This document shows, in pieces, positions 3,001 through 6,000 of a stretch of DNA of 12,246 bases (positions within the stretch are counted from its first letter, which is position 1; each line of letters begins with the position of its first letter). The stretch is from a virus (lineage: Duplodnaviria > Heunggongvirae > Uroviricota > Caudoviricetes). Position numbers: made by a program. The stretch lies in the IMG/VR virus record IMGVR_UViG_2548876950_000019; one strand, 5' to 3'.

Positions 3001-6000
3001 TCATCAGGCTTTTTCACTGATTTAGCGTTGATCAGACTGTTCATTCCCGCAGCCGTAGTCATTTGCGGAGTAATGTCTCGCTCAACGCGCGGTGCCGTTT
3101 CCTGTAATTCGTCAGGGGTGTAAACACCGAGAAGTACATCAGGAGCGTGCAGGCGAGCCCATCGTTTCGTGCAAAGATAGGCGAGCTGCTGGCGCGGATC
3201 CTGTTCCCACAATGGAGAGTTACGCACTCCGGCTTGCGCCATACTGATGGTAAGCTCACGTGGTTCTGCTTCTCCTTTAAGAACTGCTGACACAGTTACC
3301 GTCAGATTCGGTGATTTATCTGTTTTGCCGTTAACATTCGACCAGTCACCGCTCCAGCGATAATTCAGGCGTGTCGCCAGCAGGCTGGAAGAGGATACGA
3401 CCGCGTTTACCAACTGTGCTTCGTAGCCTAACGTTCCGTTTACCACATGCGTTTTCTGCGCCACGGCGAACGGGTTCATTCCCCACTGTGCCGCCTGCAT
3501 GGTCACCGCCAGGCAATCGGCAGGTTTGCCTTCAAGATGTTTCGGTACAGTCGCTTTGCTTTGTGACATCAACTCCGCGAAACGCACCAGTTGATTCATG
3601 CCCTCGGGGCTGAAGATTGCCGCAGCAGTGCCTACAGTTGCGCCTGGTTGTGATGTGATTGCGATATCATTGCTCATACATACATATCCTGTTTACGTGC
3701 CCAGTCAGGACGTTTAATAATTTCCACTCCGCCCCATTCATCGTTGATGCGGCATTCGTGATAGGTATTCAGATCCCGGCGGAACAGAGCGTGCCCGGCA
3801 TCGACATCCGGCGCATCCAGCTCGAACACGCGTACCGGATACCGACCACAATCAATGCTTTCGCTCACGGCAAGAAAGAAAAAACCATGCGGCTGACCAG
3901 TAACCCTCATTGCGCCTTCGCGGTACATTGCGTCCTGCACGTGGTAGCGGAATTCCTCGATGTGACGTGCAAAACGCTCCATATCTGCAACCTTTTTCAC
4001 GTCGACGATCACGTTGTGCTCGTTCAGCCATTTGTCTGGACGAATTCGGCACAACTCACCAGTCTCTTCATCGTTCCAGTACATTGACGCTTCGCAGTAA
4101 CCAGGTGCTTCCAGCATCCAGCGTGCCGCCGGGTGAGCCATTGCGCTATCACGCATCAGCTCCAGTTTCCGCCACTGCTCGGCATCAAGTACCGTAATCC
4201 CCATATCCGCCACATCACGAAGAAATGCCTCTTCGTCAGCTTTACCTTGTTTCGTCCGACGATCGAATTTCGGTGAAACAATGAAGCGTTTGTCGAACTC
4301 TCCAGGCTCCAGAAGCAGACAGTGCAATGCGGTTCCCATATCCAGTGCAGACTTTTTCTCTTCGTCTTCTGGTGCTGCCTGAACCCATTTAAGAAGCGCC
4401 GGATTCTTGGCAACCATGTCCAGTTGCGACTTACTCACGCCGTCCCCGGCGTGGTAGTCTTCGTTGCTGATGTCGAAATAAATTCCCGGCTTCATGCCGC
4501 GTCCCTCTGCCCATCAAGCTGATCAGCCAGATCCCAGCGGGCGATAATTGCCATTGCCTCGCGCCGGTAGGCATCCATCAGTTCTTCGAACTCAGGGCTG
4601 TCTTTAGCAGCCTCCAGCACTTCCTGACGAACGCCTTTGCCTGTTACAACGTCGAAAGTTGAGGCCAGTTGGTGAAGCCGGATACTCTCAATCAGTTCAA
4701 CTTGTCGGTCATATAGCTGTTCTGACAGGCGGTAGTCCTTGTCGAATGCCAGCATGATTTTTTGAAGATTTTTCTGCTGATTAACGTTCATTATCATCCC
4801 TCCCATATCTCGTTATCGTTGGCCACATCGCGAGCTTCTTTGCTGACGAAAGCCCACTTAATGCCTTCCTGTAAGGTGCGGAACTTCCAGCTCATGAATC
4901 CGCATGCAGTAACGCAGTACCAACCGTTGATGATTTTCCACTGCATAACTTGTTACCTCGGTCTGTTACCGTTTAGGTAATAATTATGCGTATCTGGTTT
5001 GATGTCAATAGATATGAGTTAAAAAAATTACCCATTAGGTAATTGAACAGGCAATAAAAAAGCCGCCAGAAGGCGGCTTACTTACTGAAAAATATGATTT
5101 TATTGTTTGTTTTTTTCGTTCTGGTTGATGACAAATTCAATGTAACTTTCGATCTTTGCTTTCTCGGTTTCGGGTAACAATGCGTAGCGCGAGCGGTCAT
5201 AGTTGATAGTTGCAGGGTCATGCGGGTGAATCAGTAGTTCATATCCGTGACGCCCGAATGCGGATGCAACATTCTCCAGGGTGGAAATGGAAACACTGAC
5301 CTCATTGTTTAACAGGCGGCTGATTGTCACCTGGGCGACGCCGGATGCGCGGTGAAGTTTTCCCTGTGTTGAAAGGTCGCGGCTTTCGCTCATCCAGCGT
5401 TCCAGGTTGTGAGCCGCCAGCTGACCAATGTCGCTTGGGCCGACAGGCTGAAACCCCTCCTGAGAAAGCGAGCGATCGATATCAAGCCAGTTACGGGGTT
5501 TATTGGCGGCAGCTTCAATTTTTCGCGCAACCTGGTCGCCGATAACCTTCTTGCCAAGAGCCCAGCGGTTTACCAGATTTGCCTGAGTTCCAAGTTTTTC
5601 TGCCATCCGCGTCTGAACACCATTGAATTCACGGTCGATCAAGTCGTTGAGATTTTGCCTGCGGACGTCCTGGATACTTTTCATTTTCTGGAGAATCGCC
5701 TCATATATGAATCAGTAGATGATTCAATTTAAAGCAATATTACCCAACAGGTAAATGCACCCCATAGGTAACTATCCTTGATTTTTGTTACCTTATGGGT
5801 GAATATTTATTATCTGAAATAAATATCAGGCAATAGCTATGAGCGATAACGGACATTTCGATTTCAAAAAGCACTGGCTTGCACTTACTCCGGATGAGCG
5901 TGAAGCCTTCGCACAGGAAGCCGGAACGACGAGTCACTATATCCAGACTCACTTAACAGGTAAGCGCAAAATGCCAGGTAAAGTATTGATGAATGGGCTT

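What the first reader, a model, noticed from the sequence alone, without database searches (positions are those of the whole stretch)
4953..5802. 15-bp palindrome TTACC-N5-GGTAA marks the immunity operators on both sides of the repressor gene
Reading the sequence, TTACC-N5-GGTAA occurs at 4966-4980 and 5028-5042 (flanking a leftward promoter with a perfect -35 TTGACA) and at 5740-5754, 5757-5771 (variant GCACC...GGTAA) and 5788-5802 (variant ...GGTGA) in the repressor/Cro divergent region. In my scan of GGTAA and TTACC across all 12.2 kb, no full site was found in coding sequence. This is the expected signature of OL/OR-type operators, here with a motif I do not recognise as that of a characterised phage.
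Basis: seen in the sequence. Interest (0 to 1): 0.65.

Follow-up and report, generated by a model that had tools for sequence, protein, structure and literature searches.

The report
Repressor operator sites of phiV10-like prophage
The 15-bp palindrome TTACC-N5-GGTAA is real and marks the binding sites of the prophage's immunity repressor, but it is the same operator already annotated in the related phage epsilon15 and belongs to the structurally studied SPC32H Rep/Ant switch, so it is a correct but largely ordinary finding.

Summary
The window is a phiV10/epsilon15-like (Uetakevirus) temperate phage, about 97% identical to phiV10. The exact motif occurs 5 times against 0 in 200 shuffles, always in intergenic DNA.

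The 194-aa repressor is a full-length homolog (E = 4e-42) of Salmonella phage SPC32H Rep (PDB 5D50/5D4Z). SPC32H Rep is a non-cleavable tetramer that binds palindromic sites and is dismantled by a LexA-controlled antirepressor.

The same motif sits at the same positions in 11 of 12 relatives whose Rep is 41-100% identical. Half-site alignment columns are invariant in 72/80 cases, against 5/40 for the N5 spacer. The epsilon15 GenBank record already labels such sites "repressor". A Providencia prophage with a changed recognition helix has a shifted motif (TAACC-N5-GGTTA).

The interpretation as immunity operators is therefore supported, but the motif is not new. Beyond the finding: in phiV10 the sites form a genome-wide regulon, and two promoters (PL and one after the replication genes) are each bracketed by two sites exactly 62 bp apart. 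That spacing may reflect micro-looping by one tetramer; this is inferred, not shown.

The parts
4966..4980 (.). Operator OL-proximal, perfect TTACCGTTTAGGTAA. It abuts the -10 of PL and is centred on the predicted PL start (~4973).
   Evidence: half-sites invariant in 6-phage alignment A4
4980..5008 (-). PL, the leftward early promoter: -35 TTGACA 5008-5003, 17-nt spacer, -10 AATTAT 4985-4980. It drives the 50-aa ORF 4794-4946 and then the exonuclease/RecT genes.
   Evidence: GTCAATAG (-35 region) invariant in A4. Not mapped experimentally.
5028..5042 (.). Operator OL-distal, perfect TTACCCATTAGGTAA, centred 62 bp from the proximal site (about -62 relative to the PL start).
   Evidence: 62-bp (63 in two Klebsiella loci) spacing in every relative with the motif
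5060..5079 (-). Rho-independent terminator of the repressor gene (8-bp stem, 6 GC pairs, T-run). It insulates rep from PL.
   Evidence: annotated as a terminator in phiV10
5100..5684 (-). Rep, the 194-aa immunity repressor: N-terminal HTH DNA-binding domain (~1-70, invariant NLVNRW at 35-40), middle HTH_3-like dimerisation domain, and C-terminal tetramerisation/Ant-binding domain. No S24 autocleavage domain.
   Evidence: (5D50_A E=4e-42, residues 1-190)
5740..5754 (.). Operator OR, rep-proximal, perfect TTACCCAACAGGTAA. It overlaps a conserved candidate leftward -10 TAATAT (5741-5736) for rep transcription (inferred).
5757..5771 (.). Operator OR, middle, variant GCACCCCATAGGTAA, 17 bp centre-to-centre from the previous site. 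It is a perfect TTACC site in the epsilon15/Klebsiella lineages.
5778..5806 (+). PR, the rightward early promoter (inferred): invariant -35 TTGATT 5778-5783, 17-nt spacer, -10 GAATAT 5801-5806. The consensus scan instead proposed TTGTTA 5785-5790 / TATTAT 5808-5813.
   Evidence: TTGATTTTT invariant in 6 phages. Start site not mapped.
5788..5802 (.). Operator OR, PR-proximal, TTACCTTATGGGTGA (1 mismatch), lying in the PR spacer. It is imperfect by one base in all 7 relatives where the site was read (TCACC or GGTGA); in the Klebsiella phage it lies beyond one mismatch (ACACC...GGTAA).
5839..6069 (+). Cro-like 76-aa HTH protein, a possible second reader of the same sites.
   Evidence: phrog_35 'transcriptional repressor' E=5.6e-13; weak HTH similarity to the Rep NTD
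6091..6110 (+). Rho-independent terminator after the cro-like gene.
6125..6139 (.). Fourth-region site, variant GCACCTTAAAGGTAA. The right half GGTAAT is invariant and the left half is degenerate (nnACC/nnTCC) in all relatives. It is centred about -60 from the next promoter.
6157..6185 (+). Conserved promoter for the 6220-6420 gene and the replication genes: -35 TTGATC 6157-6162, 17-nt spacer, -10 CAAAAT 6180-6185 (inferred).
   Evidence: GGTTGATCTTTTTT and AAAAT invariant in alignment A5
8039..8058 (+). Short conserved terminator (GCGC-loop-GCGC followed by T7) after the lambda-P-like gene.
   Evidence: annotated in phiV10; invariant in A2
8071..8085 (.). Third-region upstream operator, perfect TTACCTGGTGGGTAA.
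   Evidence: the orthologous epsilon15 site is annotated 'repressor'
8105..8133 (+). Promoter 'P3' (inferred): -35 TTGATT 8105-8110, 17-nt spacer, -10 TTTAAT 8128-8133. Its geometry is the same as PL: an ungapped PL/P3 alignment puts the operators and ATCTATTGA in register.
   Evidence: Rejected by the consensus scan because position 2 of the -10 is not A.
8133..8147 (.). Third-region downstream operator, perfect TTACCTCGGGGGTAA, 62 bp from the upstream one. It overlaps the -10, the predicted start and the RBS of the DUF1064 resolvase-like gene (ATG at 8151).
   Evidence: 62-bp spacing in all 12 sequences that keep the motif

Best explanation
The TTACC-N5-GGTAA palindromes (often extended to ATTACC-N5-GGTAAT) are the operators of Rep, the non-cleavable immunity repressor encoded at 5100-5684 of a phiV10/epsilon15-type prophage.

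Inferred binding mode. Two N-terminal HTH domains read the two half-sites, whose centres are 10 bp (one helical turn) apart. By homology with SPC32H Rep, the protein is a tetramer that presents two such pairs of DNA-binding domains.

Layout in the window. Sites sit in four cassettes built as terminator, operator, A/T-rich stretch, -35, -10, operator, RBS.
- At PL and at the promoter after the replication genes (P3), one perfect site covers the -10/+1 region and would occlude RNA polymerase. A second perfect site lies exactly 62 bp upstream, about six helical turns away and so on the same face of the helix.
- Between rep and the cro-like gene there are three sites. One lies in the PR spacer. 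Two are adjacent, 17 bp apart, over the probable rep promoter.
- A degenerate site lies about 60 bp upstream of the start of the promoter for the replication genes.

Rep thus shuts every early transcription unit directly. In phiV10 it also has sites at the late, lysis and int units, so no antitermination cascade is needed.

Induction is inferred from SPC32H and from phiV10. SOS cleavage of LexA derepresses a small antirepressor (Ant, encoded outside this window), which splits the Rep tetramer and releases all operators at once.

Shown here: the sites, their enrichment, their conservation and spacing, and Rep and Ant homology. Inferred: actual binding, transcription start sites, tetramer bridging of the 62-bp pairs, and autoregulation at OR.
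For: Enrichment. The exact motif occurs 5 times against 0 in 200 shuffles, always intergenic. phiV10 as a whole has 14 sites at 1 mismatch or fewer against 0.74 expected, nearly all in intergenic or promoter regions.

Repressor identity. Rep matches SPC32H Rep 5D50_A at E=4e-42 over its full length. It has no S24 domain. It is 100% identical to ZX5 ORF21, shown by overexpression to act as the repressor. SPC32H Rep binds palindromic sites as a tetramer and Ant breaks the tetramer (PMC9638917; PMC9986798).

Prior annotation. The epsilon15 GenBank record labels ATTACC-N5-GGTAAT sites as repressor-binding at OL and after the replication genes.

Conservation. The motif is kept at the same three or four regions in Tyrion, BUCT554, Klebsiella ST512phi13.3, epsilon15 and SPN1S, and in prophages of Superficieibacter, Erwinia, Klebsiella and Citrobacter, although Rep identity falls to 41-45%. 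Half-site columns are invariant in 72/80 cases, against 5/40 for N5 and 172/489 for other intergenic columns (Fisher p = 2.5e-17 and 3e-21). The recognition-helix block NLVNRW is invariant in the six aligned phage Reps.

Covariation. The Providencia prophage has the helix NVISRY and the motif TAACC-N5-GGTTA / TAAAC-N5-GTTTA in the same regions.

Geometry. Pair spacing is 62 bp at P3 in all 12 sequences that keep the motif, and 62 or 63 bp at OL. PL and P3 align without gaps, with operators and -35 in register.

Induction circuit. phiV10 p24 matches SPC32H Ant at E=2.9e-46, with a perfect LexA box CTGTATAAATACACAG just upstream.
Against: There are no binding data for this phage, and none could be generated here. 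The primary SPC32H papers (PMC3807360, PMC4983836) and the epsilon15 genome paper (PMC2698709) were not readable. I therefore could not confirm that the experimentally used SPC32H operator DNA is exactly this motif. The epsilon15 annotation may itself be computational.

Covariation rests on a single divergent lineage. The promoters and start sites are consensus-based, and P3 fails the strict -10 rule. The Ant gene and its LexA box are not in the window; a LexA-box scan of the window was not significant.
Confidence: 0.87

Rival explanations
1. The sites are Rep operators, but each is bound independently and there is no bridging or looping. The downstream site blocks RNA polymerase. The upstream site at -60/-62 blocks alpha-CTD contacts with the A/T-rich UP-like stretch, or simply raises the local Rep concentration. 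On this view the constant 62-bp spacing only reflects fixed promoter geometry. This is a rival to the looping sub-mechanism, not to the operator reading.
For: The stretch between the upstream site and the -35 is A/T-rich at PL, P3 and the post-cro promoter. The post-cro promoter has only the upstream site, with a half-site remnant downstream. About 40 of the 62 bp are fixed by the -35/-10 spacing and by the downstream site abutting the -10. A 62-bp loop is energetically costly.
Against: The roughly 20-bp segment between the upstream site and the -35 shows no indel in any of 12 lineages, while neighbouring intergenic DNA is full of indels. The sequence of that segment does drift. Rep carries a tetramerisation domain of the 'TetDloop' type, which is linked to DNA looping in pLS20 Rco. 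A tetramer has two DBD pairs but each site needs only one.
Confidence: 0.4
2. The palindromes are mainly targets of the Cro-like protein (5839-6069), or are shared between Cro and Rep as in lambda, so that some sites (for example the perfect rep-proximal site 5740-5754) serve lytic-phase shut-off of rep rather than lysogenic repression.
For: The cro-like protein hits phrog_35 'transcriptional repressor'. Its HTH resembles that of the Rep NTD (27% over 41 aa). It lies divergent from rep across the three-site region, as in the lambda paradigm.
Against: There is no evidence of its DNA specificity. The motif tracks the Rep recognition helix in the one variant case, though the Cro-like protein of that locus was not examined. 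Sites far from the switch (P3 and the late region in phiV10) fit a global lysogenic repressor better than a Cro. Shared use does not contradict the main explanation.
Confidence: 0.3
3. The motif is not a repressor site at all. It would be a binding site for another factor (a host protein, or a phage AlpA/PerC-like regulator), a recombination or module-boundary sequence, or a small RNA hairpin.
For: The sites lie at module junctions next to terminators, and the palindromes could in principle form 5-bp hairpins.
Against: The half-sites are invariant but the N5 is free, so there is no compensatory or loop constraint. Sites sit at fixed positions relative to the -35/-10 of several promoters. Upstream sites lie after terminators and before promoters, so they are poorly transcribed. 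The motif changes together with the Rep helix in Providencia. The epsilon15 curators also assigned the sites to the repressor.
Confidence: 0.04

Closest known systems
Salmonella phage SPC32H / SPN1S Rep-Ant lysogeny switch (Kim & Ryu 2013 J Virol; Kim et al. 2016 PNAS; PDB 5D50, 5D4Z)
   Same: Rep is a full-length homolog (E=4e-42, ~42% identity) with the same three-domain layout and an invariant putative recognition helix. SPN1S carries the same TTACC-N5-GGTAA sites at OL, OR and after the replication gene. The phiV10 lineage has a near-identical Ant (E=2.9e-46) behind a LexA box.
   Different: The Rep middle and C-terminal domains are diverged (42% overall). The OR middle site is degenerate (GCACC) here but perfect in SPN1S. 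SPN1S and epsilon15 have a third OL site 76 bp further out that is absent here. Binding is demonstrated only for SPC32H. I could not read the primary papers to compare the exact operator fragments used.
Salmonella phage epsilon15 annotated repressor-binding sites (GenBank AY150271.2)
   Same: Same genus, same gene order and same 17-bp ATTACC-N5-GGTAAT motif at orthologous places: OL, after the replication genes, upstream of terminase, head genes and tailspike.
   Different: The epsilon15 record does not annotate its OR sites or the second site of the P3 pair, both of which carry the motif. The phiV10 record annotates none. The Rep proteins are only 42% identical.
Lambda / P22 / 434 CI-type OL-OR immunity regions
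   Same: Divergent repressor and cro-like genes separated by a three-site operator region. A second operator cluster lies at a leftward early promoter. The palindromic sites are read by HTH domains.
   Different: Rep has no S24 autocleavage domain and is inactivated by an antirepressor. Operators are not confined to OL/OR but precede many transcription units. No N/Q-type cascade is evident in the window. The paired sites are 62 bp apart and bracket whole promoters, rather than forming adjacent 23-24-bp arrays.
Antirepressor-induced, non-cleavable prophage repressors (Gifsy-1/-3, Fels-2; Lemire et al. 2011, PMC3121763)
   Same: The logic is the same: LexA controls an antirepressor, which inactivates a non-cleavable repressor.
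   Different: Relatedness to those proteins was not tested here. The SPC32H-type Ant is described as structurally distinct from them (my recollection of the Kim & Ryu 2013 abstract, not re-read).
pLS20 Rco / p53-type 'TetDloop' tetrameric looping regulators (PMC9986798)
   Same: An N-terminal HTH DBD plus a C-terminal tetramerisation domain said to be shared with SPC32H Rep. Multiple separated operators are compatible with looping.
   Different: Looping by Rep has not been shown. The spacing here is very short (62 bp).

Membership tests
SPC32H/epsilon15-type Rep-Ant immunity system (Uetakevirus) | Repressor homologous to SPC32H Rep over its full length (N-terminal DBD, middle dimerisation domain, C-terminal tetramerisation/Ant-binding domain) | tested here: met
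   phmmer against PDB: 5D50_A E=4e-42, query residues 1-190; 5D4Z_A E=4e-20 for residues 89-190. 6-sequence alignment with 65 invariant columns.
SPC32H/epsilon15-type Rep-Ant immunity system (Uetakevirus) | Repressor lacks a LexA/CI-type S24 autocleavage domain | tested here: met
   Pfam finds only HTH families (HTH_3, HTH_26, YdaS-like) and no Peptidase_S24.
SPC32H/epsilon15-type Rep-Ant immunity system (Uetakevirus) | Palindromic operators of the ATTACC-N5-GGTAAT type at OL, OR and downstream of the replication genes | tested here: met
   Window sites. Same motif and positions in epsilon15, SPN1S, Tyrion, BUCT554 and a Klebsiella phage. The epsilon15 record labels them 'repressor'.
SPC32H/epsilon15-type Rep-Ant immunity system (Uetakevirus) | Small (~86 aa) antirepressor Ant under LexA control | tested here: inconclusive
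   Not encoded in the 12.2-kb window; in phiV10 it lies about 6 kb upstream of int. It is present in phiV10, whose Rep is 100% identical: p24 matches 5D50_E at E=2.9e-46, with a perfect LexA box at L007 20823-20838. The LexA-box scan of the window was not significant.
SPC32H/epsilon15-type Rep-Ant immunity system (Uetakevirus) | Rep physically binds these sites as a tetramer | not testable with these tools
   Known for SPC32H only through citing papers. Needs EMSA, footprinting and SEC-MALS with the window's protein.
Lambda CI-type OL/OR immunity region | Three-site operator region between divergent repressor and cro genes, plus an operator cluster at PL | tested here: met
   Sites at 5740, 5757 and 5788 between rep and the cro-like gene; sites at 4966 and 5028 flanking PL.
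Lambda CI-type OL/OR immunity region | CI-like repressor with a RecA-stimulated S24 autocleavage domain | tested here: not met
   No S24 domain; homolog of the non-cleavable SPC32H Rep.
Lambda CI-type OL/OR immunity region | Repressor sites confined to OL and OR, with later genes controlled by antitermination | tested here: not met
   Extra sites at 6125, 8071 and 8133 in the window. In phiV10 there are further sites before terS, head genes, tail fibre, lysis/oac and int.

The most novel reading that the evidence does not exclude
One Rep tetramer clamps each early promoter by holding the two perfect operators that bracket it, forming a helically phased 62-bp micro-loop around the -35/-10. The same single repressor and operator code silences every transcription unit of the phage across a whole genus spanning E. 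coli, Salmonella, Klebsiella, Enterobacter, Citrobacter and Erwinia. All these phages would then share one DNA-level immunity specificity, and Ant-driven tetramer splitting would release all promoters through loss of avidity. None of this is excluded by my evidence. A citing paper states that the structural mechanism of repression by this Rep has not been extensively characterised.
Probability: 0.35. Interest if true: 0.5.

Novelty: new member of a known kind. Interest (0 to 1): 0.27.

Why it matters
The finding gives the operator map for the phiV10-type immunity region. That region is very common in E. coli prophages: at least 80 IMG/VR contigs carry a 100%-identical Rep. Neither the phiV10 record nor the ZX5 study defined these operators.

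It shows that the SPC32H/epsilon15 operator code is shared across the genus even though Rep has diverged to 41-45% identity. This predicts cross-immunity at the DNA level. It also supplies ready-made fragments for testing how a tetrameric, antirepressor-sensitive repressor engages paired sites. The map is useful for annotation and for engineering phiV10-based reporter phages, but it does not overturn anything.

Tried and rejected
- Primary papers: reading the SPC32H papers and the epsilon15 genome paper by DOI or PMC id failed because they are not held. I relied on citing papers and on GenBank annotation.
- LexA box in the window, looking for an antirepressor promoter: 8 one-mismatch hits against 4.4 expected, none near the AntA-type gene, so rejected.
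- The 2-mismatch site at 5949-5963 inside the cro-like gene: not conserved in epsilon15, so treated as chance.
- A possible extra motif ATGTGGTTTT shared by P3 and the phiV10 tail-fibre promoter: only two exact copies, not significant.
- The viral-contig scan for divergent Rep relatives returned only 100%-identical copies among the 80 loci kept, so it added no diversity.
- The strict consensus promoter scan did not call P3, and it placed the PR -35 at TTGTTA. Cross-phage alignment favours the invariant TTGATT instead.
- An inverted-repeat search of the Providencia locus with default extension found nothing useful. A direct pattern search did find the variant motif.
- Loci L003-L006 did not reach the Python sandbox, so their sites were taken from the DNA search and DNA alignment.
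- I ran no further search on further covariation cases, because the verdict did not depend on it.
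Full report
**What the window is.** Region 4900-8200 is 97-98% identical to Escherichia phages phiV10, PAS61, phiv142-3 and others of the genus Uetakevirus (epsilon15-like temperate podophages). The gene order in the window is as follows:
- integrase (1-1251)
- MT-A70 methylase
- RecT (2796-3677)
- PD-(D/E)XK exonuclease (3674-4495)
- two small ORFs
- the repressor (5100-5684, minus strand)
- a cro-like gene (5839-6069)
- a small gene (6220-6420)
- a DnaT-like gene and a lambda-P-like replication gene (6436-8033)
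- a DUF1064 resolvase-like gene (8151-8495)
- accessory genes, ending with an AntA/P22_AR_C antirepressor-type gene (11239-11862)

**Checking the observation.** Between the two left sites lies a leftward promoter with a perfect -35 TTGACA, a 17-nt spacer and -10 AATTAT.

The exact pattern TTACC-N5-GGTAA occurs five times in the window, against zero in 200 dinucleotide-preserving shuffles. All five fall in the 8.2% of the window that is non-coding.

A further variant, GCACCTTAAAGGTAA at 6125-6139, follows the terminator after the cro-like gene and uses the same GCACC half-site as 5757-5771.

At two mismatches or fewer the excess is weak (9 against 3.5 expected). The one coding hit, 5949, is not conserved in epsilon15.

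**The repressor.** The 194-aa protein matches the repressor of Salmonella phage SPC32H (PDB 5D50 chain A) over residues 1-190 at E = 4e-42. It matches the crystallised C-terminal fragment (5D4Z) at E = 4e-20. Pfam sees two HTH-like regions and no S24 peptidase domain.

Citing papers summarise the SPC32H work:
- Rep has an N-terminal DNA-binding domain, a middle dimerisation domain and a C-terminal tetramerisation/antirepressor-binding domain.
- It binds palindromic sites as a tetramer, with each DNA-binding pair drawn from different dimers.
- A tetrameric antirepressor, Ant, splits it into dimers that bind DNA poorly (PMC9638917; PMC9986798).

The window's Rep is 100% identical to ORF21 of phage ZX5. 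Overexpression of ORF21 drove the lytic-to-lysogenic conversion in that study, which mapped no operators.

**The motif is already annotated in epsilon15.** The updated epsilon15 GenBank record carries 'protein_bind: repressor (lysogeny)' features. Read out, they are ATTACC-N5-GGTAAT sites at OL (three), after the replication genes (one), and upstream of terminase, the head genes and the tailspike. The epsilon15 region between rep and its cro-like gene also contains TTACCATAAAGGTAA, TTACCATAACGGTAA and TCACCAGAAAGGTAA, although these are not annotated. The phiV10 record annotates terminators but no operators.

**Comparative test.** Exact sites are found at the same three locations: a pair after the replication genes, the rep/cro gap, and a pair downstream of rep. 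This holds in Tyrion (Rep 78% identical), BUCT554 (75%), Klebsiella phage ST512-KPC3phi13.3 (45%), epsilon15 and SPN1S (42%). It also holds in prophages of Superficieibacter, Erwinia dacicola, Klebsiella and two Citrobacter species.

In four six-phage alignments, half-site columns are invariant in 72/80 cases. N5 spacer columns are invariant in 5/40 and the remaining intergenic columns in 172/489 (Fisher p = 2.5e-17 and 3e-21). The six sequences are related to each other, but the contrast is between columns of the same alignments.

The predicted recognition-helix block N35-L-V-N-R-W40 is invariant across the six aligned phage Reps.

The one relative without the motif is a Providencia alcalifaciens prophage (Rep 34% identical). 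Its block reads NVISRY, and it carries TAACC-N5-GGTTA and TAAAC-N5-GTTTA in the same three regions. This is a single case of protein/site covariation. It is suggestive, not conclusive.

**Anatomy and likely mechanism.** The reverse complement of the PL region and the third region align without gaps. Both operators and the ATCTATTGA around the -35 fall in register. In each region one perfect site abuts or overlaps the -10 and is centred on the predicted start (about 4973 for PL, about 8140 for P3). The other perfect site is centred 62 bp upstream.

That 62-bp spacing holds at P3 in all 12 sequences that keep the motif. At OL it is 62 bp in ten and 63 bp in the two Klebsiella loci. The sequence between the sites drifts but has no indels, whereas indels are frequent just outside the pair.

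Every cassette starts with a terminator: 5060-5079 for rep, 6091-6110 after cro, and 8039-8058 after the P-like gene. Each early unit is therefore insulated and has its own Rep-controlled promoter.

In the rep/cro gap, cross-phage conservation points to an invariant TTGATT (5778-5783) as the PR -35. That places the one-mismatch site 5788-5802 in the PR spacer. The adjacent sites 5740-5754 and 5757-5771 overlap a conserved candidate leftward -10 (TAATAT, 5741-5736), presumably for rep.

The post-cro promoter (TTGATC 6157-6162, CAAAAT 6180-6185) is invariant across phages. It keeps only the upstream site, about 60 bp before the predicted start.

In the complete phiV10 genome there are 14 sites at one mismatch or fewer, against 0.74 expected. 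They include sites before terS, the head operon, the tail fibre, the lysis/oac divergent region and int. Rep therefore looks like a global silencer rather than a lambda-style two-locus repressor.

phiV10 p24 is the SPC32H Ant homolog (5D50 chain E, E = 2.9e-46), with a perfect LexA box immediately upstream. This completes the chain in which LexA represses Ant, Ant inactivates Rep, and Rep represses the operators. Ant lies outside this window.

**What is shown and what is inferred.** Shown: the sites, their statistics, their conservation and spacing, and the homology of Rep and Ant. Inferred: that Rep binds these sites in this phage, the promoter assignments and start sites, autoregulation at OR, and the idea that one tetramer bridges the 62-bp pairs.

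The looping idea rests on three points: the tetramer has two DNA-binding pairs, the spacing is strictly conserved, and the sites are about six helical turns apart. The main alternative is independent binding, in which the upstream site blocks alpha-CTD/UP-element contacts in the A/T-rich stretch. I rate looping at about 0.35-0.4.

**Comparison with known systems and novelty.** This is a member of the SPC32H/epsilon15-type Rep-Ant immunity system. It resembles lambda only in having divergent repressor and cro genes with a tripartite operator region. It fails two defining lambda features, an autocleavable CI and operators restricted to OL/OR.

The motif is not new. It is the epsilon15-group operator, publicly annotated in the epsilon15 record.

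New relative to what I could find are:
- the explicit operator map for the phiV10 immunity type
- the second P3 site and the OR sites that epsilon15's record omits
- the invariance of the motif across the genus despite Rep divergence
- the conserved 62-bp bracketing architecture
- the Providencia variant

I rate this a new member of a known kind, of modest interest (0.27). I could not read the primary SPC32H papers, so some of these points may already be published there.

Noticed in passing
window 6690-6842: Six iteron-like direct repeats (core CCCAAAAACGGGA, spaced 18-45 bp) lie inside the DnaT-like replication-initiator gene (6436-7251). They probably mark the phage replication origin, by analogy with lambda ori inside gene O. 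Two of them were flagged as terminator-like hairpins on the minus strand.
   Followed up: partly
window 11239-11862: A 207-aa AntA + P22_AR_C antirepressor-type gene (phrog_377 'anti-repressor Ant', E=5.7e-95). phiV10 has different genes at this position. It has no PDB sequence match and is unrelated to the small SPC32H-type Ant. The ZX5 study calls an ORF4 'anti-repressor'; whether that is this gene, and whether it acts on Rep, was not tested. No LexA box or Rep site is nearby.
   Followed up: partly
L007 (phiV10 genome) 87-119, 3252, 20497, 20877, 24692, 26870: Rep-type sites occur outside the immunity region: at the start of terS, before the head genes, on both sides of the Ant-like gene p24, between oac and the lysis genes, and just upstream of int (just beyond the left end of the window). 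This indicates a genome-wide Rep regulon, possibly including feedback on ant.
   Followed up: partly
L007 20543-20838 (phiV10, outside the window): phiV10 p24, annotated as hypothetical, is about 88% identical to the SPC32H antirepressor (5D50_E). A perfect LexA box, CTGTATAAATACACAG, lies 23 bp upstream of its start codon.
   Followed up: yes
window 2796-4495: RecT (2796-3677) and the PD-(D/E)XK exonuclease (3674-4495) are separate overlapping ORFs here, as in Tyrion and BUCT554. The phiV10 record annotates a single fused 'recET' CDS of 1761 bp.
   Followed up: no
window 4953-4957 and 6186-6189: Isolated half-sites lie next to full sites. TTACC at 4953, 13 bp from the OL-proximal site, overlaps the Shine-Dalgarno of the first PL gene and is conserved in Tyrion and BUCT554. 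The remnant AACC (TTACC in relatives) lies directly after the -10 of the post-cro promoter, at the position where PL and P3 have their downstream operator.
   Followed up: partly
L013 (Providencia alcalifaciens prophage) 1672-1704, 3884-3975, 4654-4741, 4898: Two related palindromes, TAACC-N5-GGTTA and TAAAC-N5-GTTTA, coexist at the operator regions of this distant relative. Tandem ATAAACAAA repeats lie upstream of its rep gene. This may be a two-specificity or degenerate operator code.
   Followed up: partly
L002 (Tyrion) 4654-4866: The annotated Tyrion gene gp39 on the opposite strand overlaps both OL operators and the PL promoter. It is probably a spurious ORF call.
   Followed up: no
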